Source of the DNA: Escherichia coli | GTDB lineage: Bacteria > Pseudomonadota > Gammaproteobacteria > Enterobacterales > Enterobacteriaceae | DNA: 64,000 nt | Direction: 5' to 3' (one strand) | NCBI RefSeq assembly: GCF_001677475.2 | Contig: NZ_CP015229.1 | Shown: positions 6,146-56,353 of the stretch, one piece after another | Layout of the letters: each line of letters starts with the position of its first letter | Numbering within the stretch: the first letter of the stretch is position 1 | The notes under the pieces: generated by a model | What the model was told of the DNA's origin: nothing | What the model saw: the letters and a program-made list of their open reading frames with translations, nothing else | Databases searched by the model: none | Position numbers and translations under genes: made by a program

Positions 6146-6483
6146 TCAGGACATAAGCAACTGAAATTGATGGCTGGCATGACGAGGGATGCAGATGCTG
6201 ATTTCATTACCCCCGGTGATTACTAAAGGAGAGGTTAAAACGACTTTATTCCCCTGGTATGTGTATCCACCAGTAGAACCCTTCGTTGCCCGAATGCTGG
6301 CAGGAACTGTTGGCAGAACGGCAACATTTTTTTTGTCGTTGACCTCACCATGTCGATCACTATGCCTGTATCCCACCTTACTGGCTGACAACCCCACTAT
6401 GCCGCTGGTCTGTAAATCCCTCATATCTCTCCTCGCGCGCAATTTAAAGAACCGTTATTTCTCAAGAATTTTCAGGGACTAAA

Positions 6484-11870: not shown

Positions 11871-12116
11871 GACTATCCCTTATATTTCATTACTGCGATT
11901 ATTTCAATTTCAGTATACTAATGAAATGATGCCAGACTGTTTCTTCGTGCAAAAACTGCCATATTTGGTAGGACCAAAATTTATCCACAAAGTAGTTTTG
12001 CATAACATTTAATTGATAATAAGTAAATGCAACACGAATATATTTTCACACGGCGTATAGCTTATGTTTATAAAAAAATGGCTGATCTTATTTCCAGTAA
12101 AAGTTATATTTAACTT

Positions 12117-12222
12117 ACTGAGAGCACAAAGTTTCCCGTGCCAACAGGGAGTGTTATAACGGTTTATTAGTCTGGAGACGGCAGACTATCCTCTTCCCGG
12201 TCCCCTATGCCGGGTTTTTTTT
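12117..12222 (+). ncRNA. gadY: GadY small RNA, antisense to the gadX 3' end
   Basis: Sequence ACTGAGAGCACAAAGTTTCCCGTGCCAACAGGGAG...CCCGGTCCCCTATGCCGGG followed by T8 on the + strand matches the GadY sequence as I recall it; terminator hairpin plus U-run seen directly. Confidence 0.7.
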
Positions 12223-12238
12223 ATCTCTGAGTAAAACT

Positions 12239-39851: not shown

Positions 39852-39861
39852 CGCGTTATCA

Positions 39862-42480
39862 TCATTGTTGAGCCAGAGCCTGATCCGATGGTTGTGCCGT
39901 TTCGCTCCGCTCCGGGCGGCGCGGAATAAACGATACAACCCAGGAAACCAGAGAAGTCAGCACACGGAATATGCCCTTCACCGAAGAAGGCGCAAACTCC
40001 GCCAGATGGCGGTAGCCACGGAAGCCGAGCTTCAGAATATCCAGCAGACTTTCCAGCGGCTTATCTTCCGGGTAGCTGTCCTGCCAGAGCGCCCATGTAT
40101 CCGCACGGGCAAACGTACACTGCACAAAATCGATATGTTGCTGAGTGGTGAGCGGCATTAATTTCAGCCCAACTTCATTACCCATCACGCGCGCCACCTG
40201 GGTCGGGAAGACATATTCCTGCTGACCGCGTTTAAGCAACAGATTCACTTTCTGCCCTTCCAGAATCTGTGCCTGACCGTTGATCTTGATCCCCAAACCA
40301 CCGTCGGAGAAATCCTGAACGGTACACGAGAAGAGATGACCATCTTCGCGGGCAATTGCCGCGGGCATCGTCATCTCCACGCGGTGCGAACGACGTACCT
40401 GTTTGCTTTCTACCGATACCGCAACTGCGCCGCCAAGAACAATCAGGTTGTAGAATACCCACACCATACTGACGACCACGGTGAGCATCTCGGTTGGCGG
40501 ACCATAGAAGTAGCGCCAGATGCCTACCGCAACGCCCACCAGGTTGAGCAGAACAAGGAAGATGTAGGGCCGCGAGATCACCCAGTCGACGTACTCTTCT
40601 TCCACCAGTCCACCTTTGGCGGTGACGTTAAATTTGCCTTTGTGCGGGTTAATCAGCGCCACCAGCGTCGGTGGTGCGATATACCACGCCAGCACCGTTT
40701 CGTAGATTTCACTCCAGAAAGAGTGGCGATATTTGCCCTGGATCTTGGAGTTGGTCAGGCTAGCATGGATCATATGCGGCAGCACGAACAGGGCAATCAT
40801 CAACGCTGGCGCATAGATGATGTAGGCATGAAGCAGCAGGAACGCCAGCGGCGCAGTCAGGAAGATCAGTCGTGGAATGCCCGACAAGAAGTGGAACATG
40901 GCGTTGACGTAACATAGCCGCTGAGCAAACTTCAGCCCTTTACCGGTGAGCGGGTTATCGAGACGAAAGATTTGCACCATCCCGCGCGCCCAGCGAATAC
41001 GCTGACCAATATGCGCCGACAGACTTTCGGTCGCCAGCCCCGCCGCCTGCGGAATACGCATATATGCAGAGGTGTAGCCACGACGGTGCAGGCGCAAAGA
41101 GGTATGCGCATCTTCAGTCACAGTTTCGACAGCAATACCGCCAATTTCATCCAGCGGCTTACGGCGAATCACCGCACAGGAACCGCAGAAGAAAGTGGCG
41201 TCCCACATATCGTTGCCATCCTGCACCAGACCATAGAACAGCGTGCCTTCGTTCGGTGTTTTACGAAAACGCCCCAGGTTGCGTTCAAACGGGTCCGGTG
41301 AGAAGAAGTGGTGCGGCGTCTGCATCATCGCCAGCTGTTTTTCTTTCAGGAACCAGCCCATGGTCATTTGCAGGAACGATCGCGTTGGTACGTGGTCGCA
41401 GTCGAAAATCGACACGAACTCGCCTTTGGCATATTTCAGCGCATTGTTGATGTTGCCCGCTTTCGCATGTTCATGAGTGGTGCGGGCGATATATTTCACC
41501 CCCACGTTTTGCGCAAACTGGCGAAACTCTTCCCTGCCGCCGTCATCAAGGATCCAGATGTTCAGCTTGTCTTTCGGCCAGTCGATACCCAGCGAAGCGT
41601 AAATGGTATTTTTCACCACGTTGAGATCTTCGTTGTAAGTCGGGACAAAGATATCCACCGACGGCCACAGCGACATATCTTTCGGCAATGGCACCGGCTG
41701 ACGATTCAGCGGCCATACGACCTGGAAGTAGCCGAGCACCAGCACAATCCACGCGTACGTTTCAGCGAAGAGCAGAATAAGCCCGCACACCAGGCTGACC
41801 GGATCGTCCCAGTTCAACGTAGAGGTGTAGCGCCACCAGATATAACGGCAAGAAACGGTCAGCGACAGCACAATCAGCATCAACGCCGAGAAGCGCCCCG
41901 GCATCCGCCGTACGATCAGCGCTACACCCCACAGCAGCATCAGGAAGATAAACTGCGCCAGCGGGTTAAATGGCTGGGTGACGCAGATTAATGCCAGAAT
42001 CAGCGAGAAGGTGACGATGATACCGAGGATCAACCGCCGCGCCCCGGCACTCAAATGACCGAGTTCTTTTTTCTCATCAAGATGCTGTGTTTTATGGCTA
42101 ACGCGCTCAGGCAGCTCGTTCATCCATTGATGGTAACGTCCACGAATATTTTGCAGACCTGAAAATGCCCGCCTGCGCGGTTTCGGCGTTTCTTTGCGCG
42201 ATGCACCGATCAGTAACCAGCATGTTTGAATGAGATAACGGACCGGGTCCAGCGGACGCGGACGCGAGGCGTTGATATGCGGATACAGGTTTTTATGTTC
42301 TGCGCGAATACGCTGCCAGCGCGGGTGCTCCAGCGGAATAAAAATCCAGGCCAGGATCATCCAGAAACAGCCGAGCGTCGCGCTGAAAGCCGACGCACCG
42401 TGGCGACGATAATCGCGATAACGCCCGATAAGCCGCGCGTTGACCGGCGGGATAAGCAACCACCGGGTCAGGATACTCAT
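39862..42480 (-). CDS. bcsA: Cellulose synthase catalytic subunit BcsA (GT-2, PilZ domain), 872 aa
   Basis: Protein MSILTRWLLIPPVNARLIGRYRDY...; glycosyltransferase and QRIRW motifs; ATG verified at 42478-42480, overlapping the bcsQ stop. Confidence 0.95.
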   Translation of the reverse strand: MSILTRWLLIPPVNARLIGRYRDYRRHGASAFSATLGCFWMILAWIFIPLEHPRWQRIRAEHKNLYPHINASRPRPLDPVRYLIQTCWLLIGASRKETPKPRRRAFSGLQNIRGRYHQWMNELPERVSHKTQHLDEKKELGHLSAGARRLILGIIVTFSLILALICVTQPFNPLAQFIFLMLLWGVALIVRRMPGRFSALMLIVLSLTVSCRYIWWRYTSTLNWDDPVSLVCGLILLFAETYAWIVLVLGYFQVVWPLNRQPVPLPKDMSLWPSVDIFVPTYNEDLNVVKNTIYASLGIDWPKDKLNIWILDDGGREEFRQFAQNVGVKYIARTTHEHAKAGNINNALKYAKGEFVSIFDCDHVPTRSFLQMTMGWFLKEKQLAMMQTPHHFFSPDPFERNLGRFRKTPNEGTLFYGLVQDGNDMWDATFFCGSCAVIRRKPLDEIGGIAVETVTEDAHTSLRLHRRGYTSAYMRIPQAAGLATESLSAHIGQRIRWARGMVQIFRLDNPLTGKGLKFAQRLCYVNAMFHFLSGIPRLIFLTAPLAFLLLHAYIIYAPALMIALFVLPHMIHASLTNSKIQGKYRHSFWSEIYETVLAWYIAPPTLVALINPHKGKFNVTAKGGLVEEEYVDWVISRPYIFLVLLNLVGVAVGIWRYFYGPPTEMLTVVVSMVWVFYNLIVLGGAVAVSVESKQVRRSHRVEMTMPAAIAREDGHLFSCTVQDFSDGGLGIKINGQAQILEGQKVNLLLKRGQQEYVFPTQVARVMGNEVGLKLMPLTTQQHIDFVQCTFARADTWALWQDSYPEDKPLESLLDILKLGFRGYRHLAEFAPSSVKGIFRVLTSLVSWVVSFIPRRPERSETAQPSDQALAQQ

Positions 42481-43229
42481 GATGCACTCCCGACTGGCGT
42501 TTTCAGCCCGGAATAGTTCAACAGGCACCAGTTAGCCAGCGTCAGTATCTCTTCCGCCGCCAGCGCATCACTGCGATATTCACCGACTGGTTGCTTAGCC
42601 GCCAGGCATTCAGCCATCGCTTCATCACGATGAATGAGCATCGGCAGTAATCGGCGCTGGCTTTGCAACCAAAGCTGGTAAATATCGTCCTGAACCTGAC
42701 TGCCGATACGGAAGTCATTAATCAAAATATGCGCGCCATCCGGCAGCGCCTGCTGATGCAGCCGGATATGGCAGTTGGCATCCACATTGACGATTGCCAG
42801 CGAGTGATCGCACAAACTCAGCAGCTGGTGGGTTATCTGCGAGGCATCACGCGGTAAGTCGATTAAAATCCACTGGTAACGCCCGCTGGCTTTTAGTTGC
42901 TGTAAGCCGGAGCAAATATCGCTCAGCCGGGTTTGCCAGTGCTGTGGATTTTCTTGTTCTTCAATGGATAACTGACCAAAAGGCAGCAAATCGAGCTGCG
43001 AGGTATAGCGCAACCCAGCGTCACGCCAGTCCTGGCCATCCAGCATAGCTCTGGCCCAGCCCTGACGGTGGGTAAAATCAACGTTAAATGACAGGCGCAA
43101 CAAGTTGTCCGGGCAGGCATCGACCACCAGGACATTTTCTCCCAACATTTGTAATGACCAGGCTAATGCGGCGGTGATGGTTGTTGTCCCCACGCCTCCC
43201 CGCACCCCCTGCAATCCCAGTACGGCCAT
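42477..43229 (-). CDS. bcsQ: Cellulose biosynthesis ParA/MinD-family ATPase BcsQ, 250 aa, intact
   Basis: Protein MAVLGLQGVRGGVGTTTITAALAWSLQMLG...; codon 6 is TTG (Leu), so the reading frame is open from the ATG. Confidence 0.9.
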   Translation of the reverse strand: MAVLGLQGVRGGVGTTTITAALAWSLQMLGENVLVVDACPDNLLRLSFNVDFTHRQGWARAMLDGQDWRDAGLRYTSQLDLLPFGQLSIEEQENPQHWQTRLSDICSGLQQLKASGRYQWILIDLPRDASQITHQLLSLCDHSLAIVNVDANCHIRLHQQALPDGAHILINDFRIGSQVQDDIYQLWLQSQRRLLPMLIHRDEAMAECLAAKQPVGEYRSDALAAEEILTLANWCLLNYSGLKTPVGSAS

Positions 43230-43240
43230 TCACCAATCCC

Positions 43241-43429
43241 CTACTTTTGTTGCGCAAACTCTGCCAGCAACGGCCAGCGTTTTAATGCCGCGGCCAACTG
43301 TTCGCGTTGGGAAATATCGGCATAATCAATATCAGGCAGTGAAAATGCCTGCTTTAACGCCAAAATATCATTCTGGAAGATATAGCCTATCGCGGGATCA
43401 GGCAGAGTATCTGGTTCATTGTTATTCAT
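43241..43429 (-). CDS. bcsR: Small cellulose biosynthesis protein BcsR, 62 aa
   Basis: Protein MNNNEPDTLPDPAIGYIFQNDILALKQAFSLPDIDYADISQREQLAAALKRWPLLAEFAQQK; ATG verified at 43427-43429. Confidence 0.85.
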   Translation of the reverse strand: MNNNEPDTLPDPAIGYIFQNDILALKQAFSLPDIDYADISQREQLAAALKRWPLLAEFAQQK

Positions 43430-43700
43430 TTGCTTGATCCCTATGAAATAACCGTACCGTTCATGAGACAATTCTAACCGTGAGCATTTCGCCGGTTTAT
43501 TGTTTACGGCGAGACGGGAATTTGCTCACTTTTTGACTTTCCGTTACGCAACAAAAAAAGTTAAAAACGAAAAGACTAAAATCACACGTCTTGTGACCTG
43601 CTAAATTGATTCACATGCTAAATCTGATAAGTTTTAATTTCAATGGTAGGTTTATTTCTTAGCTTTCGCTAGTAAACTGATAATCAGACAAAATGATGAC

Positions 43701-45272
43701 ATGAGGGACATTGTGGACCCTGTATTCTCTATCGGTATCTCATCATTATGGGATGAGCTGCGACATATGCCAGCAGGCGGCGTCTGGTGGTTTAACGTCG
43801 ATCGCCATGAAGATGCTATCAGTCTGGCGAATCAAACAATTGCATCCCAGGCTGAAACCGCACACGTCGCGGTCATTAGCATGGACAGCGATCCGGCGAA
43901 AATCTTTCAATTAGATGATTCTCAAGGGCCGGAAAAAATAAAATTATTTTCAATGCTAAATCATGAAAAAGGTCTATACTATTTGGCCCGTGATTTGCAG
44001 TGTTCTATTGAACCCCATAATTACCTTTTTATTCTTGTTTGCGCAAATAACGCATGGCAAAACATTCCTGCCGAGCGGCTTCGCTCATGGTTGGATAAAA
44101 TGAATAAATGGAGCAGGTTAAACCATTGTTCGCTTTTGGTAATTAATCCCGGAAATAATAACGATAAACAATTTTCATTGTTGCTTGAGGAATACCGTTC
44201 ACTTTTTGGTCTTGCCAGTTTGCGTTTTCAGGGTGACCAACATTTGCTGGATATTGCCTTCTGGTGCAACGAAAAAGGGGTTAGCGCCCGTCAGCAGCTT
44301 AGCGTTCAGCAACAAAATGGTATCTGGACATTAGTTCAAAGCGAAGAGGCGGAGATCCAACCACGCAGCGACGAAAAACGCATTCTGAGTAATGTTGCTG
44401 TACTGGAAGGTGCGCCGCCGCTATCGGAACACTGGCAACTGTTCAACAATAACGAAGTTCTGTTCAATGAAGCCCGTACCGCTCAGGCGGCGACGGTGGT
44501 CTTTTCTTTACAGCAAAATGCGCAAATCGAGCCACTGGCCCGCAGCATTCATACTCTGCGTCGCCAGCGCGGTAGTGCGATGAAAATCCTCGTACGGGAA
44601 AATACCGCAAGCCTGCGCGCCACCGATGAACGTTTGTTATTGGCCTGCGGTGCAAATATGGTTATCCCGTGGAATGCGCCACTCTCCCGTTGTCTGACGA
44701 TGATCGAAAGCGTGCAAGGGCAGAAGTTTAGTCGCTATGTGCCGGAAGATATCACTACCTTGCTGTCAATGACCCAGCCGCTCAAACTGCGTGGTTTCCA
44801 GAAGTGGGATGTGTTCTGTAATGCCGTCAACAACATGATGAATAACCCTCTATTACCTGCCCACGGTAAAGGCGTTCTGGTTGCCCTACGTCCGGTACCG
44901 GGTATCCGCGTTGAACAAGCCCTGACGCTGTGTCGCCCTAACCGTACCGGCGATATCATGACCATTGGCGGTAATCGGCTGGTGCTGTTTCTCTCATTCT
45001 GTCGGATTAACGATCTGGATACCGCGTTGAATCATATTTTCCCATTGCCTACTGGCGACATTTTCTCAAACCGTATGGTCTGGTTTGAAGATGATCAAAT
45101 CAGTGCCGAGCTGGTGCAGATGCGCCTGCTTGCCCCAGAACAATGGGGCATGCCGCTGCCTTTAACGCAAAATTCTAAACCGGTCATTAATGCCGAGCAC
45201 GATGGTCGCCACTGGCGACGAATACCAGAACCCATGCGACTGTTAGATGATGCTGTGGAGCGCTCATCATGA
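43701..45272 (+). CDS. bcsE: c-di-GMP-binding cellulose biosynthesis protein BcsE, 523 aa
   Basis: 523-aa protein divergent from bcsR; first gene of bcsEFG. Confidence 0.95.
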
Positions 45273-45460
45273 TGACCATCAGCGATATCATTGAAATTAT
45301 TGTCGTTTGCGCACTGATATTTTTCCCGCTGGGCTATCTGGCGCGGCACTCTTTGCGACGCATTCGCGACACCTTACGTTTGTTCTTTGCTAAACCTCGT
45401 TATGTTAAACCGGCCGGGACGTTACGCCGCACGGAAAAAGCCAGGGCAACCAAAAAATGA
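45269..45460 (+). CDS. bcsF: Small membrane protein BcsF, 63 aa
   Basis: Single-TM 63-aa protein; start overlaps the bcsE stop and stop overlaps the bcsG start. Confidence 0.9.
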
Positions 45461-47136
45461 CTCAATTTACGCAAAATACCGCCATGCCTTCTTCCCTCTG
45501 GCAATACTGGCGCGGCCTTTCCGGCTGGAACTTCTATTTTCTGGTTAAGTTCGGCCTGTTGTGGGCAGGATATCTTAACTTCCATCCGCTCCTCAATCTG
45601 GTGTTTGCCGCGTTTCTGCTGATGCCCATTCCGCGCTACAGCCTGCATCGCTTACGCCACTGGATTGCCCTGCCGATCGGCTTTGCTTTGTTCTGGCATG
45701 ACACCTGGTTGCCTGGCCCGGAAAGCATAATGAGCCAGGGTTCGCAGGTGGCGGGGTTCAGTACCGATTATTTAATCGACCTTGTCACACGCTTTATTAA
45801 CTGGCAGATGATTGGGGCCATTTTTGTTTTATTAGTGGCCTGGTTATTCCTGTCACAATGGATTCGCATTACCGTTTTTGTGGTTGCCATTCTGCTATGG
45901 CTGAACGTACTTACCCTGGCGGGACCAAGTTTCTCCTTGTGGCCAGCCGGTCAACCGACGACCACTGTAACAACGACGGGTGGTAACGCAGCGGCAACCG
46001 TTGCGGCGACGGGTGGCGCACCGGTAGTGGGTGATATGCCCGCACAAACTGCACCGCCAACAACGGCGAACCTTAACGCCTGGCTGAATAATTTCTATAA
46101 CGCGGAGGCGAAACGTAAATCGACCTTCCCGTCTTCGCTGCCCGCTGATGCTCAGCCATTTGAACTACTGGTGATTAATATCTGTTCGCTTTCCTGGTCG
46201 GATATTGAAGCCGCCGGGTTGATGTCGCATCCGCTGTGGTCACATTTCGATATTGAGTTCAAGAACTTTAACTCCGCCACCTCCTACAGTGGCCCGGCGG
46301 CGATCCGTTTACTGCGCGCCAGCTGCGGGCAGACTTCGCATACTAATCTGTATCAACCGGCAAATAATGACTGCTATCTGTTTGATAACCTGTCGAAACT
46401 GGGCTTTACCCAGCACCTGATGATGGGACATAACGGCCAGTTCGGCGGTTTTTTGAAAGAAGTTCGCGAAAATGGCGGCATGCAGAGCGAATTGATGGAT
46501 CAAACAAATCTGCCGGTTATTTTGCTGGGCTTTGATGGTTCGCCGGTTTATGACGATACCGCCGTGCTTAACCGCTGGCTGGACGTTACCGAAAAAGATA
46601 AAAACAGCCGTAGTGCCACGTTCTATAACACGCTTCCACTGCATGACGGCAACCATTATCCGGGCGTCAGCAAAACAGCGGATTACAAAGCGCGGGCGCA
46701 GAAATTCTTTGATGAACTGGACGCCTTCTTTACTGAACTGGAGAAATCGGGTCGTAAAGTGATGGTGGTCGTGGTGCCGGAACACGGTGGCGCGCTGAAG
46801 GGCGACAGAATGCAGGTATCTGGCCTACGTGATATCCCTAGCCCGTCTATCACAGACGTCCCCGTTGGGGTGAAATTCTTCGGCATGAAGGCACCACATC
46901 AGGGGGCACCGATTGTCATCGACCAACCGAGCAGCTTCCTGGCTATCTCCGATCTAGTGGTTCGCGTTCTTGATGGCAAGATTTTCTCCGAAGACAATGT
47001 TGACTGGAAAAAACTCACCAGTGGGTTACCACAAACAGCACCGGTCTCCGAGAACTCAAATGCAGTAGTTATTCAATACCAGGATAAACCGTACGTTCGC
47101 CTGAACGGCGGCGACTGGGTGCCTTACCCGCAATAA
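45457..47136 (+). CDS. bcsG: Cellulose phosphoethanolamine transferase BcsG, 559 aa
   Basis: N-terminal TM segments and C-terminal alkaline-phosphatase-like domain; last gene of bcsEFG. Confidence 0.95.
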
Positions 47137-47141
47137 GAACG

Positions 47142-47172
47142 AAAAAGGCCGCAGAGTTTCACCCCTGCGGCC
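47142..47172 (-). terminator. Intrinsic terminator of ldr copy 1 (hairpin ggccgcag/ctgcggcc plus U-run on the minus strand)
   Basis: 8-bp perfect stem with A5 on the + strand (U5 on the minus strand); identical hairpin repeated at about 47625-47655 for copy 2. Confidence 0.6.
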
Positions 47173-47222
47173 TGGTCCGGGCGCAAATTGCCATTACGGC
47201 AGCCTGACGCCCGCATGACACG

Positions 47223-47330
47223 TTACTTCCGCTTGTTCAGCCAGTTCACGATCATACTGGCAAGAATGCCAGCAATGACCGGAGCCGCTAAATCATGCCA
47301 GAAGGCCATGCCCAGCTCTGCGAGCGTCAT
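47223..47330 (-). CDS. ldrD: Ldr-family type I toxin peptide, 35 aa (copy 1)
   Basis: Translates to MTLAELGMAFWHDLAAPVIAGILASMIVNWLNKRK, a hydrophobic 35-aa Ldr toxin; too short for the ORF track. Confidence 0.85.
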   Translation of the reverse strand: MTLAELGMAFWHDLAAPVIAGILASMIVNWLNKRK

Positions 47331-47379
47331 ATAGCCGCCTGTGTTGTAATGACAACGTTTCGCGGCTATTCTTGAGTGG

Positions 47380-47445
47380 TCTAGGTTCAAGATTAGCCCC
47401 CGTTATGTTGTCAGGTGCATACCTGCAACGTGCGGGGGTTTTCTC
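47380..47445 (+). ncRNA. rdlD: Rdl-type antisense RNA (antitoxin) of ldr copy 1; 5' end approximate
   Basis: + strand hairpin CCCCCG...TGCGGGGG followed by TTTTCT (47396-47444); sigma70-like TTGTAA-17bp-TATTCT upstream; lies antisense to the ldr leader. Confidence 0.55.
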
Positions 47446-47705
47446 TCTCCAGCAACCAATGCCACCAGGGATAAAGCCCCCGCAACATTGCGCCTCACCG
47501 GAACCCTTCCGGCTTGCCGCTGATTCTACGACTGTTTTTCTGTTCCGGAATCCGTCACGTCTTCACTCTGTGCTGCGCATTCCGCAGAATATTATCCGCG
47601 TGCAATCGTTGCATTTTTCTTACGAAAAAGGCCGCAGAGTTTCACCCCTGCGGCCTGGTCCGGGCGCAAATTGCCATTACGGCAGCCTGACGCCCGCATG
47701 ACACG

Positions 47706-47813
47706 TTACTTCCGCTTGTTCAGCCAGTTCACGATCATACTGGCAAGAATGCCAGCAATGACCGGAGCCGCTAAATCATGCCAGAAGGCCATGCCCAGTT
47801 CTGCGAGCGTCAT
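47706..47813 (-). CDS. Ldr-family type I toxin peptide, 35 aa (copy 2)
   Basis: Same 35-aa peptide as copy 1, with one synonymous difference (GAA vs GAG at codon 5); it is the C-terminal part of ORF-track entry 47706..47981. Confidence 0.85.
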   Translation of the reverse strand: MTLAELGMAFWHDLAAPVIAGILASMIVNWLNKRK

Positions 47814-47861
47814 ATAGCCGCCTGTGTTGTAATGACAACGTTTCGCGGCTATTCTTGAGTT

Positions 47862-47927
47862 GTTCAGGTTCAAGAATGGCCCCCGTGATGTTGTCAGGTG
47901 CATACCTGCAACGTGCGGGGGTTTTCT
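47862..47927 (+). ncRNA. Rdl-type antisense RNA (antitoxin) of ldr copy 2; 5' end approximate
   Basis: Second copy of the hairpin-plus-U-run terminator (47879-47927) in the same relative position to ldr copy 2. Confidence 0.55.
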
Positions 47928-48288
47928 CTCTCCAGCAACCAATGCCACCAGGGATAAAGCCCCCGCAACATTGCGCCTCACCGGAACCCTTCCGGCTTGC
48001 CGCTGATTTTACGATTGCTTTTTACTGTCAGCACCCGGCAATCTTCCTCATTGCGTGATGCCTTCCAGCTTAATTTCTTAATTTGCAATAGTTGCAGTTC
48101 ATATCCGGGCTGACTCCAGACTGGTAGTGAAATGCGCAATTTTGTAGAATTGCGCCTCCTCGCGACCTCCCCAGTGAATCTGTTGCCTCATTTTTTACAT
48201 ACTGCGTATTCGACTTCTCCACCTGTTGCGCAAGAGAAACTGGGTTTATTCATTTTTGCGAGGCCGACTTCTTTCTGGACAGGACTTT

Positions 48289-49560
48289 ATGCAGCACAAC
48301 ACACTACCGAAACACGATCAGAAAATGCCGTTTACACGCTACGACTTCGGCTGGGTTTTATTATGTATAGGCATGGCGATTGGTGCCGGAACCGTGCTGA
48401 TGCCAGTACAAATTGGCTTGAAGGGAATTTGGGTATTTATTACCGCAGCGATCATTGCTTATCCTGCCACCTGGGTAGTGCAGGACATTTATTTAAAAAC
48501 CCTTTCTGAAAGCGATTCCTGTAATGACTACACCGATATTATCAGTCATTACCTGGGGAAGAACTGGGGAATTTTCCTCGGGGTTATCTACTTTTTGATG
48601 ATTATCCACGGGATTTTTATCTACTCTCTCTCCGTGGTTTTCGACAGCGCCTCGTACCTGAAAACCTTCGGTTTAACCGATGCCGATCTTTCACAATCTC
48701 TACTTTATAAAGTCGCTATTTTCGCCGTACTGGTGGCGATTGCGTCTGGTGGTGAACGATTACTGTTTAAGATTTCCGGGCCAATGGTGGTGGTCAAAGT
48801 AGGGATTATTGTCGTGTTCGGTTTTGCGATGATCCCGCACTGGAATTTCGCCAATATAACCGCCTTCCCGCAAGCCTCCGTCTTTTTCCGCGATGTCCTG
48901 CTTACCATTCCATTTTGCTTCTTTTCTGCAGTATTTATTCAGGTACTTAACCCAATGAATATTGCCTATCGTAAACGGGAAGCGGATAAAGTACTGGCAA
49001 CCCGGCTCGCGCTGCGTACCCACCGAATTAGTTATATCACGCTCATCGCGGTGATCCTGTTTTTTGCCTTTTCGTTTACCTTCTCAATTAGCCACGAAGA
49101 AGCCGTTTCTGCCTTTGAACAAAATATCTCGGCACTGGCACTGGCCGCGCAGGTGATCCCTGGGCATATCATTCATATCACCTCTACGGTGCTGAATATC
49201 TTTGCCGTACTGACCGCATTCTTTGGCATTTATCTCGGTTTCCACGAGGCTATTAAAGGCATTATTCTCAATCTGTTAAGCCGAATTATTGATACCAAGA
49301 AAATTAACTCACGCATGCTGACTCTGGCGATCTGCGCTTTTATCGTCATTACGTTGACGATTTGGGTTTCGTTTCGTGTATCGGTGCTGGTGTTCTTTCA
49401 GTTGGGAAGCCCGTTATATGGCATTGTGTCGTGCCTCATTCCATTTTTCCTGATCTATAAAGTCGCACAACTGGAAAAACTTCGCGGGTTTAAAGCCTGG
49501 CTGATTCTGCTGTACGGCATTTTGTTATGCTTGTCGCCACTGTTGAAGCTGATTGAGTAA
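48289..49560 (+). CDS. yhjV: Amino-acid permease-family inner membrane transporter, 423 aa
   Basis: Protein [39 protein letters not shown]...; ATG at 48289 is in frame with the ORF-track entry that starts at 48226. Confidence 0.9.
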
Positions 49561-49589: not shown

Positions 49590-50594
49590 TTAACGCTGCG
49601 GATTTTCATCCTGATCAACAGCAAAACAAGCTACCAGTTGACCGCCGTAGTCTTTTAGCTGCGGCTGCAACTGGGTGCAGGGGCCGAAGCGCCGACGACA
49701 GCGGGCGTTAAACGCGCAGCCCGGCGGTGGATTGAGCGGGCTTGGCAGTTCACCGGTGAGCTTGATGCGCTCGCGGCGATCGTCCGGGTTCAGGCGCGGC
49801 GTCGCGGAGAGTAGCGCCTGAGTGTACGGATGACGCGGGTTATTGAAGATTTGGTCCTTCGTTCCCTTCTCCACGCAGCGGCCCAAGTACATCACCATCA
49901 CTTCATCGGCAATGTGCTCAACCACTGACAGGTCGTGCGAGATAAAGACATAAGACAGCCCCAACTCCTGCTGCAAATCCATCATCAGATTCAGCACCTG
50001 CGCACGCACTGAAACGTCCAGCGCGGAAACCGGTTCATCGGCAATCACCACATCCGGGTCGAGCATCAGACCTCGGGCAATGGCGATACGCTGACGCTGA
50101 CCGCCGGAGAACATATGCGGATAGCGGTCGTAATGCTCGGTTTTCAGGCCGACTTTCGCCATCATCGACAGGGCTTTTTCCCGACGCTGTTCTTTGCTTA
50201 AGCTGGTGTTGATCAGCAGCGGCTCTTCGAGAATTTGCCCAACTTTTTTACGCGGATTCAGCGAACCGTAAGGGTTCTGGAAGACAATCTGGATTTTCTG
50301 CCGACGCAGCTTCTGCGCCTGCGGATCGTGCTTAAGCAGATCCTGCCCCTGGTAATACAGCTCGCCGCCGGTGGGCGTTTCAATCATCGTCAGCAACCGA
50401 CCGAGGGTCGATTTACCGCAGCCAGATTCGCCCACTACTGCCAGCGTTTTGCCACGTTCAAGGTTAAACGAAACACCATCCAGCGCCTTCACCAGACGTT
50501 CCGGTGCGAACATACCTTTCTTCACCGGATAATGTTTTTTCAGGTCGATAGCCTGCAACAGCGGTTGTTGCGAGGTGGCCTCTTGCGTACTCAT
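49590..50594 (-). CDS. dppF: Dipeptide ABC transporter ATP-binding protein DppF, 334 aa
   Basis: Walker A (GESGCGKST), ABC signature (FSGGQRQR); last gene of the dpp operon. Confidence 0.95.
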
Positions 50595-51574
50595 AGTGTG
50601 GGCCTCCCGGCATCATCAAGTGGGTAATGGCATTTGGACTGACGCCCGTCAGCGAGCATATTCAGCGCCGGTTCTTCAGCACGGCATTTGTCAGTGGCGT
50701 AGGGGCAGCGCGGGTTAAGCAGGCAGCCGTTCGGGCGGTCATACTTGCCAGGAACAACACCTGGCAACGACGCCAGACGTTCTTTGTCCTGAGCAAATTC
50801 CGGCAGCGCACGCAGCAATGCCTGAGTATACGGGTGACGCGGCGCATGGAAGATGGCGTGCGCATCGCCCGTTTCCACCACCTGACCTGCATACATCACG
50901 ATGATTTTATGTGCCGCTTCCGCCACCAGCGCCAGGTCATGAGTGATCAACACCAGCGCCATGTTCTCTTTCTGCTGTAGCTCCAGCAGCAGTTCGATAA
51001 TTTGCGCCTGAATGGTCACGTCCAGCGCAGTGGTTGGTTCATCGGCAATCAGCAGCTTTGGCCGACAGGCAATCGCCATGGCGATCATCACGCGCTGGCT
51101 CATGCCGCCGGAAAGCTGATGCGGGTAAACATCCAAACGCGAAGCCGGATCGGGAATACCGACCAGATTCAGCAGGTCAATCGCTCGCTGACGGCGGGTA
51201 CTTTTGTTGCCGCCCTGATGCACCTTAATCGCTTCCATGATCTGGAAACCCACGGTGTAGCACGGGTTAAGGCTGGTCATCGGGTCCTGGAAGATCATCG
51301 CCACTTCGGCACCCACCAGGTTGCGGCGCTCTTTTTCTGAGATACGCTGTAAATCCTGACCGTTAAACTCCAGCTTTTCCGCCATTACGCGGCCCGGATA
51401 ATCAATCAGCCCCATAATCGCCAGCGAACTGACCGATTTACCAGAGCCGGACTCACCCACAATCCCGACCACTTCGCCCTGTTTTACGCTGTAGCTGATG
51501 CGGTCTACGGCGCGGAACGGTGCGCTTTCGTCACCGAAATGCACCGATAATTTATCTACATTTAATAACGCCAT
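50591..51574 (-). CDS. dppD: Dipeptide ABC transporter ATP-binding protein DppD, 327 aa
   Basis: Walker A (GESGSGKS), ABC signature (LSGGMSQR); stop overlaps the dppF start by 4 bp. Confidence 0.95.
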
Positions 51575-51584
51575 CTCGAACCTC

Positions 51585-52487
51585 TTACTGCTTCAGTTTG
51601 GGATCGAGCGCGTCACGCAGACCGTCACCCATCAGGTTAAATGCCAGCACCGTCAGCAGGATCGCCAGACCCGGGAAGGTCACGACCCACCAGGCGCTTT
51701 GCGCGAACTGCAACACATCGGAGAGCATGGTGCCCCACTCCGGCGTTGGCGGCTGCGCTCCCATGCCGAGGAAGCCAAGGGCGGCCATATCGAGAATGGC
51801 GTTAGAGAAACCGAGCGACGCCTGAACAATCAGCGGCGCAAGGCAGTTCGGGAAGATGTTTATAAACATCTGGCGCATCGCCCCGGCACCCGCCACGCGA
51901 GACGCGGTAACGTAATCGCGATTCACCTCCACCAGCACGGCGGCGCGGGTTAAGCGCACATAGTGCGGCAAGGCAACGAAGGTTAGCGCCAGCGCGGCGT
52001 TACCAATCGACGGGCCGAAAATCGCCACCAGCACCAGTGCCAACAGCAGACTTGGCAGCGCCAGCATGATATCGACCACGCGCATGATGATGTTATCGAC
52101 CAGACCGCCAAAGTAACCGGCGATCAGGCCGAGAATAACGCCCATAATCAGCGATAACACAACTACCAGACAGCCAACCAGCAGCGACAAGCGCGCGCCG
52201 TACATCAGCCGCGACAGCACATCACGGCCTACGTCATCGGTGCCCAGCAAGTGCGCCATGCTGCCGCCTTCCTGCCAGGCTGGCGGGGCGAGCAGTGCAT
52301 CGCGGAACTGTTCCGCCGGGTTATAGGGTGCAATCCAGTTGGCAAAGATCGCGATAAACAGCACGATGACGACGTAAACCAGCCCGACAACCGCGCCTTT
52401 GTTGCGTTTAAAATAGTGCCAGAACTCCTGTAACGGGGTCATCGGCACCGGTGCGCTAATCACTTTATTTTCAGTAACCTGTGACAT
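51585..52487 (-). CDS. dppC: Dipeptide ABC transporter permease DppC, 300 aa
   Basis: Binding-protein-dependent transport permease sequence, 300 aa. Confidence 0.95.
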
Positions 52488-52496
52488 GATGTCCCC

Positions 52497-53516
52497 TTAC
52501 TTCTTATGACGAATACGCGGGTTCACCACGCCGTACAGCAGATCGACCAGCAGATTGACGAGGATAATCATCGTCGCCACCAGCAATACGCCACCCTGCA
52601 CTACCGGATAATCGCGGCGTTGCAGTGCGTCAATCAACCAGCGCCCCAGACCAGGCCACGAGAAGATGGTTTCGGTCAGAATCGCCCCCGCCAGCAATGT
52701 TCCCACCTGAAGGCCGATAACGGTCACTACCGGCAGCATCGCGTTACGCAGCGCGTGGACGATAATCACCCTAAGGCGGGTCAACCCTTTGGCGCGCGCG
52801 GTGCGGATATAATCTTCACCCAGCACTTCAAGCATCGAGGAGCGCGTCATACGCACAATCACCGCCAGCGGTATCGTACCCAGCACAATGGCGGGCAGGA
52901 TCATATGCGCGACGGCATCGATAAAGTTACCGTCTTCACCCCAGATGGCGGTGTCGATTAGCATAAAACCGGTTAACGGATTGGAATCATCGAGGAACAC
53001 CATGTCGCTCACGCGACCGGAGACGGGCGTCAGGTTCCAGTGCACCGAAACCAGCATGATCAGCATCATGCCCCACCAGAAGATCGGCATCGAGTAGCCG
53101 GTCAGCGCCAGACCAACCGCCGTGTGATCGAAAATGGAACCGCGTTTAACCGCAGCCAGCACACCGACCGGAATACCGACCGCAGTCGCAAAAATCATCG
53201 CGCAGACACCAAGCTCCAGCGTGGCCTGAAAGCGCGGCACGAACTCTTCCCAAACCGGGATGCGGCTTTTCATCGAAATGCCTAAATCGCCGTGCATTAC
53301 GCTCCAAATGTAATTGAGATACTGCTGCCACATCGGTTTATCTAAGCCGAGTTCAGCCAGCAGCTGCGCGTGACGCTCTGGGGAGATCCCACGTTCGCCC
53401 GCCATGATCATCACCGGATCGCCGGGGATCATGTGGACAAAGGCAAAGGTGAGAAGGGTAATACCGATAAACGTGGGGATGACGAGTCCCAAACGTCGGA
53501 GAATAAACTGCAACAT
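52497..53516 (-). CDS. dppB: Dipeptide ABC transporter permease DppB, 339 aa
   Basis: Protein MLQFILRRLGLVIPTFIGITLLTFAFVHMIPGDP...; start trimmed to the ATG at 53514-53516. Confidence 0.9.
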   Translation of the reverse strand: MLQFILRRLGLVIPTFIGITLLTFAFVHMIPGDPVMIMAGERGISPERHAQLLAELGLDKPMWQQYLNYIWSVMHGDLGISMKSRIPVWEEFVPRFQATLELGVCAMIFATAVGIPVGVLAAVKRGSIFDHTAVGLALTGYSMPIFWWGMMLIMLVSVHWNLTPVSGRVSDMVFLDDSNPLTGFMLIDTAIWGEDGNFIDAVAHMILPAIVLGTIPLAVIVRMTRSSMLEVLGEDYIRTARAKGLTRLRVIIVHALRNAMLPVVTVIGLQVGTLLAGAILTETIFSWPGLGRWLIDALQRRDYPVVQGGVLLVATMIILVNLLVDLLYGVVNPRIRHKK

Positions 53517-53666
53517 AACCCGGATTCTCTGTAGTGACCCGCAGCCTGGAACTGCGTGTCTGTATTGCTCACAAATCAATTCCCGCCCGTGCCGGACAGG
53601 GAATGAAGTATTGCTGCCGGATGGCGCTGCACGCAGAGATGCAGCGCCACCGGGTATGGCTTTTAA

Positions 53667-55274
53667 TTATTCGATAGAGACGTTTTCGAAGTGATGTTTG
53701 CCTAATGGATCAACCACATAGCCTTTAACTTCTTTGCGTACCGGTTCAAACACGGTGGAGTGAGCGATGATCAGTGCCGGAGCCTGATCGTGCATCACCA
53801 CCTGCGCTTGCTTGTACAGTTCAACGCGTTTGTTGTGGTCGTCGGTAGCACGCGCCGGTTGAATCAGATCTTCAAACGGTTTGTAGCACCATTTTGAGTA
53901 GTTAGAACCTTGTTCAGAGGCGGCGCAGCTGAACAGGGTGGCGAAGAAGTTATCCGGATCCCCATTATCGCCAGTCCAGCCCATCATTACCGTCTGATGC
54001 TCGCCATCTTTCGCACGCTTGAGATACTCACCCCATTCGTAGGTGACGATTTTGGCCTGCACGCCCACTTTCGCCCAGTCTGCCTGAATCATCTCTGCCA
54101 TGCGGCGAGCATTCGGGTTATACGGACGTTGTACCGGCATCGCCCACAGGTCGATGGAGAAACCTTTTTCCAGACCGGCTTCTTTCAGCAAGGCTTTCGC
54201 TTTTTCAGGATCGTAGGTGTAGTCCTGAACGTCGTCGTTATAGCCCCACATGGTTGGCGGGATCAGGTTTTTCGCTGATACACCCGCGCCCTGATAAACC
54301 GCTTTGATGATCGCGTCTTTGTTCACCGCGTAGGTCAGAGCCTGGCGAACTTTCACGTCATCGAGTGGTTTTTTCTGCACGTTATATGAAAGATAGCCGA
54401 CGTTCAGCCCCGGCATTTCCATCAGGTTGATGGATTTATCCTGCTTCATGCGAGCGATATCTGCCGGGTTCGGGTACGGCATCACCTGGCATTCATTCTT
54501 CTGCAATTTCGCGTAACGCACGGAAGCGTCAGGAGTAATAGAGAAGACCAGCGTATCGATCTGCGGTTTGGTGCCCCAGTAGCCATCAAACGCTTTGTAG
54601 CGAATACGGGAATCTTTTTGATACTGCTGTAACTGGAACGGACCGGTACCGATTGGGTTGAGGTCCAGTTTTTCCGGTGTACCAGCTTTCATCATCGCAT
54701 CAGCATATTCTTTTGACAGAATAGAGGCGAAGTCCATTGCCAGATCAGCGAGGAACGGCGCTTCCGGTCGAGTCAGCACAAACTGAACGGTGTTATCGTC
54801 CACCTTTTTCACTTCGCTGATCAGCTCCGGCAAGCCCATGCCTTCGAAGTATTCGTAGCTGCCGCCAGATACTTTATGGTACGGGTTTTGCGCGTTTTTC
54901 TGACGATCAAACGAGAACACCACGTCATCGGCATTCAGTTCGCGCGTCGGTTTGAATTCTTTATTGTCGTGCCACTTCACACCTTTACGCAGATGGAAGG
55001 TATAGGTTTTACCGTCTTCGCTGACTTCCCACTTTTCAGCAAGGCCCGGGATTACTTCGGTGGTGCCGATTTTAAATTCAACCAGGCGGTTATAAAGCGG
55101 CACGGAAGAGGCGTCATAGGTGGTACCGGAGGTAAACAGCTGCGGGTTAAACCCTTCCGGAGATCCTTCTGAGCAATAAACCAGAGTTTTAGCCTGAACA
55201 CTTGCTGCGACGGTCATAGCCACCAGGCTGAGACCAAGCTTCAGCATCCCTGACTTTTTCAAGGAAATACGCAT
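53667..55274 (-). CDS. dppA: Periplasmic dipeptide-binding protein DppA, 535 aa
   Basis: Protein MRISLKKSGMLKLGLSLVAMTVAASVQAKTLVYCSEGSPEGFNPQLF... (family 5 solute-binding protein). Confidence 0.95.
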   Translation of the reverse strand: MRISLKKSGMLKLGLSLVAMTVAASVQAKTLVYCSEGSPEGFNPQLFTSGTTYDASSVPLYNRLVEFKIGTTEVIPGLAEKWEVSEDGKTYTFHLRKGVKWHDNKEFKPTRELNADDVVFSFDRQKNAQNPYHKVSGGSYEYFEGMGLPELISEVKKVDDNTVQFVLTRPEAPFLADLAMDFASILSKEYADAMMKAGTPEKLDLNPIGTGPFQLQQYQKDSRIRYKAFDGYWGTKPQIDTLVFSITPDASVRYAKLQKNECQVMPYPNPADIARMKQDKSINLMEMPGLNVGYLSYNVQKKPLDDVKVRQALTYAVNKDAIIKAVYQGAGVSAKNLIPPTMWGYNDDVQDYTYDPEKAKALLKEAGLEKGFSIDLWAMPVQRPYNPNARRMAEMIQADWAKVGVQAKIVTYEWGEYLKRAKDGEHQTVMMGWTGDNGDPDNFFATLFSCAASEQGSNYSKWCYKPFEDLIQPARATDDHNKRVELYKQAQVVMHDQAPALIIAHSTVFEPVRKEVKGYVVDPLGKHHFENVSIE

Positions 55275-55854
55275 TATTCTGCTCCAATTGTGATGTTTGT
55301 TGTTTTAACCCTTTGCAGTGGGTTGTCGCTGCCTGACCTTTTTTGTTTTTTACCCGGTCGGGTCAACGTTATGAGGTGGGGATGCCGTACTAATTAACAT
55401 CAGTGTAACAGTGCGGATCCTCCATAAAATGCCCCTCGTGACCTACAATCTGTCAACAGAATGTGAAAACGTCAATACAGCCAACCGGGATTTACACCAA
55501 CGGTGAGAATCCACAAACAAAGATTAAAAAAACTTCAAACAGCTATTTGCAGCAGAGAAATTTGTGCTACTCCAACATGACCAGAACAATCAGCTTAATA
55601 TTTAGCAACATTTGGTGATTAAGTTTTATGCATTTAGTGAAAAAAATCTGAGGAAAAGGTGGATATCTGAGCGATTAATACCATGAACGCTAAAACGCAC
55701 AGCGGAAAATGCCAGCGCCAGCCATAAGTAACGCAATAATAGATTTAAGCAAATATAAAAAAAGACAATGGTTTCTGTCACAAATCCGTTAATGGATAGT
55801 GAGATATGGGGCGCAAATTTGGCAGGGAAATGTGTGATGTGTAGGTCGAATAAG

Positions 55855-55929
55855 GTGTTCACGCCGCATCCGACAATGGGCCGGCACATTTGCCTGATGC
55901 GACGCTGGCGCGTCTTATCAGGCCTAGGT
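55855..55929. repeat. REP extragenic palindromes
   Basis: GTGTTCACGCCGCATCCGACA and GCCTGATGCGACGCTGGCGCGTCTTATCAGGCC units seen directly. Confidence 0.75.
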
Positions 55930-56262
<333 letters not shown>

Positions 56263-56353
56263 AATGCGGGGCGCATCTTACTGCGCAGATACGCCCTCGT
56301 CAATCCCTTAATAGCAAAATGCCTTTTGATCGGCGAGAAAGTCAGCAGGCCTC

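What the first reader, a model, noticed from the sequence alone, without database searches (positions are those of the whole stretch)
47139..48027. Two tandem ldr/rdl type I toxin-antitoxin modules downstream of bcsG
Two direct repeats of about 405 bp (period 483 bp) each encode the same 35-aa hydrophobic Ldr toxin on the minus strand (47223-47330 and 47706-47813). Each also carries a plus-strand hairpin plus U-run, which is what an Rdl antisense RNA terminator would look like, and a minus-strand terminator hairpin. I recall E. coli K-12 as having a single ldrD/rdlD unit at this locus and tandem copies only at the ldrABC locus, so this looks like a local copy-number expansion. The copies differ by a synonymous change in the toxin codon 5 and by several differences in the leader/rdl region, so they are not a trivial assembly duplicate and the two antitoxins may not fully cross-protect.
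Basis: partly seen in the sequence, partly recalled or inferred. Interest (0 to 1): 0.45.

Follow-up and report, generated by a model that had tools for sequence, protein, structure and literature searches.

The report
Two ldrD/rdlD toxin-antitoxin units, common variant
The window carries two tandem copies of the well-known LdrD toxin / RdlD antisense-RNA module between bcsG and yhjV, and this is ordinary because about 61% of complete E. coli genomes carry two to five or six copies at this spot.

Summary
Window 47139-47543 and 47622-48026 are direct repeats with a 483-bp period and 13 differences in 405 bp. Each encodes the same 35-aa Ldr peptide on the minus strand. The peptide matches Pfam Ldr_toxin at 93 bits and is 34/35 identical to LdrD of PDB 5LBJ. 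Each repeat also has a plus-strand Rfam rdlD match (91 and 84 bits, gathering score 50) and a minus-strand terminator.

K-12 MG1655 does have one unit here. Of 5,426 complete E. coli genomes, 3,303 (61%) carry the same inter-unit junction. I estimate one unit in about 39%, two in 6-10%, three in about 41%, four in about 12% and five or more in about 1%. The mean is 2.29 units. BL21(DE3) has three.

Each window unit is closer to units in other strains than to its neighbour. The 78-bp inter-unit spacer is also found in divergent Escherichia lineages. Tandem Ldr arrays sit next to bcsG in Kluyvera and the Klebsiella oxytoca complex too. The array is therefore old and polymorphic.

The idea that the two antitoxins may not fully cross-protect remains untested. 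Their five differences are typical of co-resident units. This is an already known system of low interest.

The parts
45457..47136 (+). bcsG (cellulose phosphoethanolamine transferase), the left flank of the array
   Evidence: 559-aa ORF. Annotated as bcsG in the matching E. coli loci.
47139..47621 (-). LDR-D-type unit 1 (bcsG-proximal). It consists of a 405-bp core (47139-47543) and a 78-bp inter-unit spacer (47544-47621).
   Evidence: The spacer is found at 90-100% identity in 3,303 of 5,426 complete E. coli genomes.
47146..47173 (-). Intrinsic terminator hairpin of ldr mRNA 1 (11-bp stem followed by a T-run)
47223..47330 (-). ldr toxin gene copy 1, encoding the 35-aa peptide MTLAELGMAFWHDLAAPVIAGILASMIVNWLNKRK
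   Evidence: Pfam PF13940 at 93.2 bits against a cutoff of 27. 34/35 identical to LdrD of PDB 5LBJ. Same protein as WP_001295224.1 in other strains.
47344..47372 (+). Candidate rdl promoter 1, TTGTAA-17 nt-TATTCT, ending 7 nt before the Rdl 5' end. Read by eye and inferred only.
   Evidence: Sequence. The stretch is identical in K-12 rdlD and in both window copies. It scores below the threshold of the consensus scanner.
47379..47444 (+). rdl antisense RNA copy 1 (66 nt), complementary to ldr mRNA positions -49 to -114 relative to the start codon
   Evidence: Rfam RF01813 at 91.2 bits. Folds as a 5' tail plus terminator hairpin, z = -5.15.
47523..47528 (-). Candidate -10 element (TAGAAT) of ldr promoter 1. 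The predicted transcription start is near 47517, giving an mRNA of about 375 nt. Inferred only.
   Evidence: The GTAGAAT / GTAGTAT / GTAATAT motif is conserved at this position in LDR units of six genera and at both loci.
47622..48104 (-). LDR-D-type unit 2 (yhjV-proximal). It consists of a 405-bp core (47622-48026) and a K-12-like upstream region (48027-48104).
   Evidence: Its upstream region differs by only 2 of 78 nt from that of the single MG1655 unit.
47629..47656 (-). Intrinsic terminator hairpin of ldr mRNA 2
47706..47813 (-). ldr toxin gene copy 2, encoding the same 35-aa peptide with codon 5 GAA instead of GAG
47862..47927 (+). rdl antisense RNA copy 2 (66 nt). It differs from copy 1 at nt 3, 4, 15, 17 and 26.
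   Evidence: Rfam RF01813 at 83.7 bits. Fold z = -4.18. Differences listed. The RNA is identical to units S1_2of2 and CT02_2of4.
48006..48011 (-). Candidate -10 element (TAAAAT) of ldr promoter 2. Inferred only.
48289..49560 (+). yhjV (putative transporter), the right flank of the array
   Evidence: for the ORF. The 1,272-nt annotated length places the ATG at 48289.

Best explanation
The region holds two intact LDR-D-type type I toxin-antitoxin units in tandem between bcsG and yhjV.

Each unit is expected to make a stable minus-strand mRNA of about 375 nt. That mRNA has a long 5' UTR and encodes the 35-aa inner-membrane toxin LdrD (here the F3L variant WP_001295224.1). It ends at its own intrinsic terminator.

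From the opposite strand, each unit is expected to make a 66-nt unstable antisense RNA, Rdl. Rdl overlaps the ldr 5' UTR 49-114 nt upstream of the start codon. By base pairing it keeps the toxin untranslated. It probably acts indirectly, through a leader ORF or the mRNA structure, because it does not cover the ldr ribosome-binding site.

The two-unit state is one allele of an old copy-number polymorphism at this locus, with one to five or six units across E. coli. Unequal crossing-over and gene conversion between the 483-bp units maintain and reshuffle it. It is not a new expansion.

Shown here: the sequence anatomy, family membership, population frequency and age of the array. Taken from published work on K-12 ldrD/rdlD: toxicity, antisense repression and RNA stabilities. 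Not tested here: expression of both units in this strain.
For: Anatomy. Toxin membership: Pfam Ldr_toxin at 93.2 bits and 34/35 identity to the solved LdrD structure 5LBJ. Antitoxin membership: Rfam rdlD above the gathering score twice.

Same locus as K-12 ldrD/rdlD.

Copy-number polymorphism. Verified loci carry 1 unit (MG1655, O157), 2 units (S1, RM8352, M16807, 1190, P19_598, PKF11, E166), 3 units (BL21(DE3), DSM 103246, 746, FDAARGOS_144), 4 units (CT02) and 5 units (EC42405). The junction query matches 3,303 of 5,426 genomes at 6,994 places. The independent unit count of 12,397 places agrees with 5,426 + 6,994 = 12,420.

Age. Window unit 1 differs from BL21 and S1 unit 1 at 7 sites and unit 2 from S1 unit 2 at 3 sites, against 13 between the two window units. 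The spacer is 88-91% conserved in two-unit arrays of Escherichia sp. E1V33 and strain SCPM-O-B-8794. Tandem Ldr arrays lie beside bcsG in Kluyvera and the Klebsiella oxytoca complex.

Mechanism from the literature: PMC4147584, PMC8309996 and PMC8167048. Lineage-specific Ldr duplications and 2-10 Ldr genes per genome: PMC2887945.
Against: There are no expression data for this strain. No sigma-70 consensus promoter passed the scanner, so both promoters are inferred from conservation.

Unit 1 carries a TAA six codons after an in-frame upstream ATG (-90) that is open for 65 aa in K-12 and most D-type units. If the unconfirmed leader-ORF (ldrX) coupling model applies to that frame, unit 1 may be translated differently.

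The 1/2/3/4/5 split of the copy-number distribution comes from systematic samples of 40 and 60 records, not a full census.
Confidence: 0.93

Rival explanations
1. A recent, strain-specific tandem duplication of the single K-12-like ldrD/rdlD unit.
For: K-12 MG1655 and about 39% of complete E. coli genomes have one unit. Two-unit arrays are a minority state, about 6-10%.
Against: The two cores differ at 13 of 405 sites. Each is closer to units in other strains (3-7 differences) than to its neighbour. Unit 1's upstream spacer differs at 39 of 78 positions from unit 2's upstream region, so it is not a fresh copy of it. That spacer is shared at 90-100% identity by 3,303 genomes and at 88-91% by divergent Escherichia lineages.
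Confidence: 0.03
2. An assembly artefact, meaning a collapsed or mis-expanded repeat, so that the true copy number in the source strain is not two.
For: 483-bp tandem repeats are error-prone in short-read assemblies. No read data are available for the window.
Against: The copies are distinguishable, with 13 core differences and different flanks. The same two-unit architecture occurs in many independently finished genomes. An under-count, with the true number at three or more, cannot be excluded from sequence alone.
Confidence: 0.04
3. One unit, most likely unit 1, is a silenced or decaying copy, so that only one functional toxin-antitoxin pair remains.
For: Unit 1 has a TAA at codon 6 of the in-frame -90 ATG leader frame (47405-47403), which is open in K-12 and most units. 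Its upstream context is the inter-unit spacer rather than the K-12-type promoter region.
Against: The toxin ORF, its terminator, the Rdl RNA (91 bits, the better of the two), the rdl promoter stretch and the conserved -10-like TAGAAT are all intact in unit 1. The same rdl/leader allele occurs at 100% identity in at least 12 other genomes and with at most one mismatch in 651. LdrA/B/C-type units lack that upstream ATG altogether, so the frame is not a conserved family requirement. The ldrX model is unconfirmed (PMC4147584).
Confidence: 0.12

Closest known systems
ldrD/rdlD (LDR-D) of E. coli K-12 MG1655, b4453/b4454, between bcsG and yhjV
   Same: Same locus and orientation, and the same unit anatomy: terminator, 35-aa ORF, 5' UTR, and the antisense 66-nt Rdl with its promoter stretch. 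The peptide is 34/35 identical. The upstream region of unit 2 differs from K-12's at 2 of 78 nt.
   Different: K-12 has one unit and the window has two. The peptide has Leu3 instead of Phe3, which is the commoner allele WP_001295224.1 in other strains. The Rdl RNAs differ from K-12 RdlD at 4 nt (unit 1) and 7 nt (unit 2) of 66.
Multi-unit ldrD-type arrays at bcsG-yhjV in other E. coli, for example O121 RM8352 and strain S1 (2 units), BL21(DE3) (3), CT02 (4) and EC42405 (5)
   Same: Same 483-bp period, the same inter-unit spacer (0-8 differences in 78 nt) and the same peptide. Unit 2's Rdl is identical to those of units S1_2of2 and CT02_2of4, and the 27-nt 5' part of unit 1's Rdl is identical to that of RM8352_2of2 and CT02_4of4.
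   Different: The particular combination and order of unit alleles is not found at 99% or more over the 1.3-kb region (best 98.8%). This is in line with the whole window being 97.5-98.8% identical to the nearest complete genome.
ldrABC/rdlABC tandem array of K-12, between kdsA and chaA
   Same: Tandem organisation of homologous LDR units with the same internal anatomy. The -10-like motif and the Rdl hairpin are conserved.
   Different: Different locus, 535-bp period instead of 483 bp, about 80% nucleotide identity, and a peptide of the LdrA/B/C type (MTLAQFAM..., 57% identical to LdrD according to PMC8309996).
ibs/sib and zor/orz tandem type I toxin-antitoxin loci of E. coli
   Same: Small hydrophobic toxin plus RNA antitoxin, tandemly repeated in one intergenic region, with copy number varying between strains (PMC2887945, PMC11264685). 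For Sib/Ibs, repression is restricted to cognate pairs with one exception, ibsA (PMC2943612 abstract).
   Different: These are unrelated toxin families. Discrimination between co-resident Rdl/ldr pairs has not been shown.

Membership tests
Ldr toxin family (Pfam PF13940; LdrD group) | A hydrophobic peptide of about 35 aa that matches the family profile above the curated cutoff | tested here: met
   93.2 bits against a cutoff of 27, covering profile positions 1-35 of 35
Ldr toxin family (Pfam PF13940; LdrD group) | Close identity to the experimentally characterised LdrD | tested here: met
   34/35 identity to PDB 5LBJ 'Small toxic polypeptide LdrD'
Ldr toxin family (Pfam PF13940; LdrD group) | Overexpression is toxic, causing growth arrest and nucleoid condensation | not testable with these tools
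   Known for K-12 LdrD (PMC4147584, PMC8309996). Not assayed for the F3L variant in this work.
Rdl antitoxin RNA (Rfam RF01813) | Sequence and structure match above the gathering score | tested here: met
   91.2 and 83.7 bits against a gathering score of 50, full-length match to model positions 1-66
Rdl antitoxin RNA (Rfam RF01813) | Encoded in cis, antisense to the 5' UTR of the ldr mRNA and not over the start codon | tested here: met
   rdl lies at 47379-47444 against the ldr ATG at 47330, and at 47862-47927 against the ATG at 47813
Rdl antitoxin RNA (Rfam RF01813) | Single-stranded 5' tail followed by a stable terminator hairpin and U-run | tested here: met
   Minimum free energy -31.7 and -32.3 kcal/mol, z = -5.15 and -4.18. 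Terminator-like sites found. The nt 17 change keeps the pair (A-U to G-U), and nt 26 lies in a bulge.
Rdl antitoxin RNA (Rfam RF01813) | The RNA is expressed, unstable and represses Ldr synthesis | not testable with these tools
   Needs Northern blots, RNA-seq and co-expression assays
LDR (long direct repeat) unit, D type | Location between bcsG and yhjV with the K-12 orientation | tested here: met
LDR (long direct repeat) unit, D type | Own intrinsic terminator downstream of ldr | tested here: met
   11-bp GC-rich stem followed by a T-run in both units
LDR (long direct repeat) unit, D type | Own ldr promoter | tested here: inconclusive
   No consensus sigma-70 site was found by the scanner. 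A GTAGAAT -10-like motif is conserved across genera at the expected place. No clear -35 element was found.

The most novel reading that the evidence does not exclude
Units in these arrays may be functionally insulated from each other. The 5' tail of Rdl, with its complement in the ldr leader, is the most variable part of the unit. Nucleotide diversity is 0.19 over Rdl nt 1-17, against 0.044 at third codon positions and 0.052 in the inter-unit spacers. There are 14 tail alleles among 39 units. This could reflect diversifying selection for non-cross-reacting Rdl/ldr pairs, which recombination then shuffles between array positions. On that reading each extra unit would add an independently controlled toxin. 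Unit 1's leader-frame stop codon might also change how it is controlled.
Probability: 0.2. Interest if true: 0.4.

Novelty: already known. Interest (0 to 1): 0.1.

Why it matters
It matters little as a discovery. The ldr/rdl system, its tandem organisation and its lineage-specific copy-number variation were described in 2002-2010, and RefSeq annotation already labels these multi-copy arrays.

The useful outcome is a correction of perspective. K-12's single ldrD unit is not the species norm, since the median in complete E. coli genomes is three units.

The only open biological question I saw is whether co-resident Rdl RNAs discriminate between their cognate and neighbouring ldr mRNAs. That bears on why type I toxin-antitoxin loci persist as arrays.

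Tried and rejected
1. Recent duplication. Rejected by unit-to-unit comparison and by the conservation of the spacer across genomes and lineages.

2. Selection for within-genome orthogonality of Rdl tails. Co-resident tails are no more different than random pairs from different genomes (mean 4.08 versus 3.92 differences). The permutation P is 0.35 for the mean and 0.49 for the number of identical pairs. There is no support from this sample.

3. Uniqueness of unit 1's leader-frame TAA. Rejected. The same TAA occurs in units RM8352_2of2 and CT02_4of4. The exact 111-nt allele occurs in at least 12 other genomes.

4. The in-frame -90 ATG ORF as a conserved leader (ldrX). It is not conserved in LdrA/B/C-type units or in three D-type units. 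I could not obtain the original definition of ldrX, because Kawano 2002 and the DNA Research 2002 paper are not held.

5. Identifying the source genome. The best complete E. coli genome is only 97.5-98.8% identical. No species-representative genome has the window's two pattern matches 483 bp apart. The source stays unidentified.

6. A consensus sigma-70 promoter scan found nothing.

7. NCBIfam has no model that matches the peptide.

8. The paper on BLASTn-based type I toxin-antitoxin copy number (PMC11264685) covers tisB, shoB and zor but not ldr.

Full report
**1. What is in the sequence**

Between the stop codon of bcsG (45457-47136, plus strand) and the start of yhjV (48289-49560, plus strand) lie two head-to-tail units with a 483-bp period. 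The repeat finder reports 47139-47438 and 47622-47921 at 98% identity. Alignment shows the homologous core runs about 405 bp, 47139-47543 and 47622-48026, with 13 differences. Past the core, the 78 bp after unit 1 (47544-47621) and the 78 bp after unit 2 (48027-48104) differ at 39 of 78 positions.

Each unit contains the following on the minus strand:
- A strong intrinsic terminator, at 47173-47146 and 47656-47629.
- A 35-aa ORF, at 47330-47223 and 47813-47706, encoding the identical peptide MTLAELGMAFWHDLAAPVIAGILASMIVNWLNKRK.

On the plus strand each unit has a 66-nt element ending in a hairpin and U-run, at 47379-47444 and 47862-47927.

**2. What it is**

The peptide matches Pfam Ldr_toxin PF13940 at 93.2 bits against a cutoff of 27. 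It is 34/35 identical to the LdrD chain of PDB 5LBJ, differing by F3L.

Both plus-strand elements are full-length matches to Rfam rdlD RF01813, at 91.2 and 83.7 bits against a gathering score of 50. Both fold into a single-stranded 5' tail followed by a long terminator hairpin, with z-scores of -5.15 and -4.18.

The locus is that of ldrD/rdlD in K-12 MG1655, which indeed has a single unit there. K-12 has three tandem units of a different subtype, with a 535-bp period, between kdsA and chaA.

Rdl is complementary to positions -49 to -114 of the ldr leader. [quoted passage not shown]

According to the literature:
- LdrD overproduction is toxic and RdlD co-expression relieves it.
- RdlD inhibits translation by a mechanism still described as unknown.
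- A hok/mok-like coupling to a leader ORF, ldrX, has been proposed but not confirmed (PMC4147584, PMC8309996, PMC8167048).

**3. Is the two-copy state unusual? No.**

A 1.3-kb query across the array hit 5,425 of 5,426 complete E. coli genomes. In an evenly spaced sample of 40 records it fell into three classes:
- Exactly two units: 4 rows.
- One unit, as in K-12: 15 rows.
- Three or more units: 20 rows.

A 118-nt query centred on the inter-unit spacer cannot match single-unit genomes. It matched 3,303 of 5,426 genomes (61%) at 6,994 places. In a sample of 60 of those genomes the numbers of junctions per genome were:

| Junctions per genome | Rows |
|---|---|
| 1 | 7 |
| 2 | 40 |
| 3 | 12 |
| 4 | 1 |

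The sample mean of 2.12 equals the population mean of 6,994 / 3,303.

Direct inspection confirmed that copy number equals junctions plus one:

| Units | Strains inspected |
|---|---|
| 1 | MG1655, O157 180-PT54 |
| 2 | S1, O121 RM8352, M16807, 1190, P19_598, PKF11, E166 |
| 3 | BL21(DE3), DSM 103246, 746, FDAARGOS_144 |
| 4 | CT02 |
| 5 | EC42405 |

An independent 111-nt rdl query counted 12,397 D-type units in 5,405 genomes, with a median of 3 and a maximum of 6. This agrees with 5,426 + 6,994 = 12,420.

My estimate of the distribution is therefore:

| Units at bcsG-yhjV | Share of complete E. coli genomes |
|---|---|
| 1 | about 39% |
| 2 | 6-10% |
| 3 | about 41% |
| 4 | about 12% |
| 5 or more | about 1% |

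RefSeq annotation already labels these as Ldr family toxins. Fozo et al. 2010 reported 2-10 Ldr/Fst-family genes per Escherichia, Shigella or Salmonella genome and inferred lineage-specific duplications (PMC2887945).

**4. Age of the array**

The two window units differ from each other at 13 core sites. Unit 1 differs at only 7 sites from the first units of BL21(DE3) and S1. Unit 2 differs at only 3 sites from the second unit of S1.

The spacer upstream of unit 1 is identical to that of O121 RM8352. It is 0-8 differences from every other inter-unit spacer examined. The region upstream of unit 2 matches the yhjV-proximal region of all strains, including single-unit K-12, at 1-2 differences.

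Unit alleles also appear at different array positions in different strains. The first 27 nt of the window's unit 1 Rdl equal those of the yhjV-proximal units of RM8352 and CT02. This points to reshuffling by unequal crossing-over or gene conversion.

One scan of species-representative genomes found the conserved leader motif next to bcsG and/or yhjV in several groups:
- Citrobacter, Salmonella enterica subsp. arizonae and diarizonae, Kluyvera, the Klebsiella oxytoca complex and several Escherichia lineages.
- Two- or three-unit arrays with intact 35-aa ORFs occur in Kluyvera sichuanensis, K. oxytoca, K. michiganensis and K. spallanzanii.
- Two-unit arrays occur in Escherichia sp. E1V33 and strain SCPM-O-B-8794. 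Their spacer is 88-91% identical to the window's.

The tandem arrangement therefore predates the diversification of E. coli. K-12's single unit is simply one state of a long-standing polymorphism.

**5. The cross-protection idea**

The two Rdl RNAs differ at nt 3, 4, 15, 17 and 26. None of these changes disturbs the Rdl fold: nt 17 goes from an A-U pair to a G-U pair, and nt 26 lies in a bulge. Because rdl is cis-encoded, each ldr leader carries the complementary changes.

Predicted duplex energies are as follows:

| Pairing | Full duplex (kcal/mol) | 16-nt tail (kcal/mol) |
|---|---|---|
| Cognate | -138 and -143 | about -25 |
| Non-cognate | -120 and -123 | about -17 |

Thermodynamics alone does not predict insulation. 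Any discrimination would have to be kinetic, and only an experiment can tell.

Across 39 D-type units from 16 genomes, nucleotide diversity is concentrated in two places:

| Region | Nucleotide diversity |
|---|---|
| Rdl nt 1-17 | 0.19 |
| Rdl nt 1-27 | 0.145 |
| Promoter-proximal end of the core | 0.17 |
| Third codon positions of ldr | 0.044 |
| Inter-unit spacers | 0.052 |
| Rest of Rdl (nt 28-66) | 0.013 |

This pattern is suggestive, but the sample is small and the units are phylogenetically non-independent. Co-resident tails are not more different than random pairs from different genomes (permutation P = 0.35). Five differences is the modal value for co-resident units.

**6. A detail in unit 1**

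K-12 ldrD and most D-type units have an ATG 90 nt upstream of the ldr start codon and in frame with it. This ATG lies inside the Rdl-complementary stretch and opens a 65-aa frame. In window unit 1 that frame stops at codon 6, with TAA at 47405-47403.

The same TAA occurs in the yhjV-proximal units of RM8352 and CT02, where the ATG is also lost. The exact 111-nt allele of the window is present in at least 12 other genomes, and with at most one mismatch in 651. LdrA/B/C-type units have no such ATG.

I could not obtain the original definition of ldrX. I therefore record this as a possible regulatory difference only. I give 0.12 to the rival explanation that unit 1 is silenced.

**7. Promoters**

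The consensus scanner found no sigma-70 promoter.

By eye, rdl is preceded by TTGTAA-17 nt-TATTCT at 47344-47372. That stretch is identical in K-12 and in both window units.

For ldr, a GTAGAAT / GTAGTAT / GTAATAT motif is conserved at the same unit position across six genera and both loci. In the window it lies at 47528-47523 and 48011-48006. It would give an mRNA of about 375 nt.

These assignments are inferences.

**8. Verdict**

Identification as two ldr/rdl modules is correct. This is an already known system in a common polymorphic state, and its interest is low.

Noticed in passing
window 38000-46000, 47000-48300, 49600-57600: The window is colinear with the E. coli gad-bcs-ldrD-yhjV-dpp-proK-eptB region. 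It is only 98.8%, 98.8% and 97.6% identical to the best of 5,426 complete E. coli genomes over these three stretches. No species-representative genome has its two-match pattern. The source is probably a divergent Escherichia or Shigella lineage absent from the collections and remains unidentified.
   Followed up: partly
window 47403-47420 (unit 1) versus 47886-47903 (unit 2), minus strand: An ATG 90 nt upstream of ldr and in frame with it lies inside the Rdl-complementary stretch. It opens a 65-aa frame in unit 2, in K-12 ldrD and in most D-type units. In unit 1 the frame stops at codon 6, with TAA at 47405-47403. The allele is shared with other genomes.
   Followed up: partly
window 47379-47405 and 47862-47888; 39 units from loci L001-L008 and L045-L052: The Rdl 5' tail and its leader complement are the most variable part of the unit. 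Nucleotide diversity is 0.19 over nt 1-17, against 0.044 at third codon positions. There are 14 alleles among 39 units, in a combinatorial pattern. Co-resident units are no more different than random pairs.
   Followed up: partly
window 47328-47481 and 47811-47964, minus strand: There are sub-threshold matches of the Rfam 'sok' model RF01794 over the ldr 5' leaders, at 27.8 and 32.4 bits against a gathering score of 59. Each match ends at the ldr ATG. This may reflect the hok-like leader architecture proposed in the literature.
   Followed up: no
window 47587-47569 and 48070-48052, minus strand; loci L010-L041: A block of the form (T/C)GGAA-N-GC...CGCA lies about 45-60 nt upstream of the predicted ldr transcription start. 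It is conserved across genera although the surrounding upstream sequence is not. Its spacing loosely resembles a sigma-54 -24/-12 element. Its function is unknown.
   Followed up: no
L029 (NZ_JABWSY010000055.1), L039 (CACSKA010000016.1): A 503-bp contig with coverage 0.66 in a 'Bacillus sp.' assembly carries an E. coli-type ldrD unit and spacer at 97% identity. A 'Chryseobacterium sp.' assembly contig carries an LDR leader that a Citrobacter contig from the same project also has. Both are likely contamination in public assemblies.
   Followed up: no
L020, L026, L033, L034, L041, L042: Two- or three-unit Ldr arrays (periods about 475-530 bp) lie next to bcsG in the Klebsiella oxytoca complex and in Kluyvera. 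The Klebsiella peptides have WDDL or WEDL in place of WHDL.
   Followed up: partly
window 6263-6334, 12114-12227, 55844-55924, 56018-56151, 56186-56262: Other RNA features at their expected K-12-like places are ES205, GadY, naRNA4, RtT and tRNA-Pro(CGG). All are ordinary.
   Followed up: no
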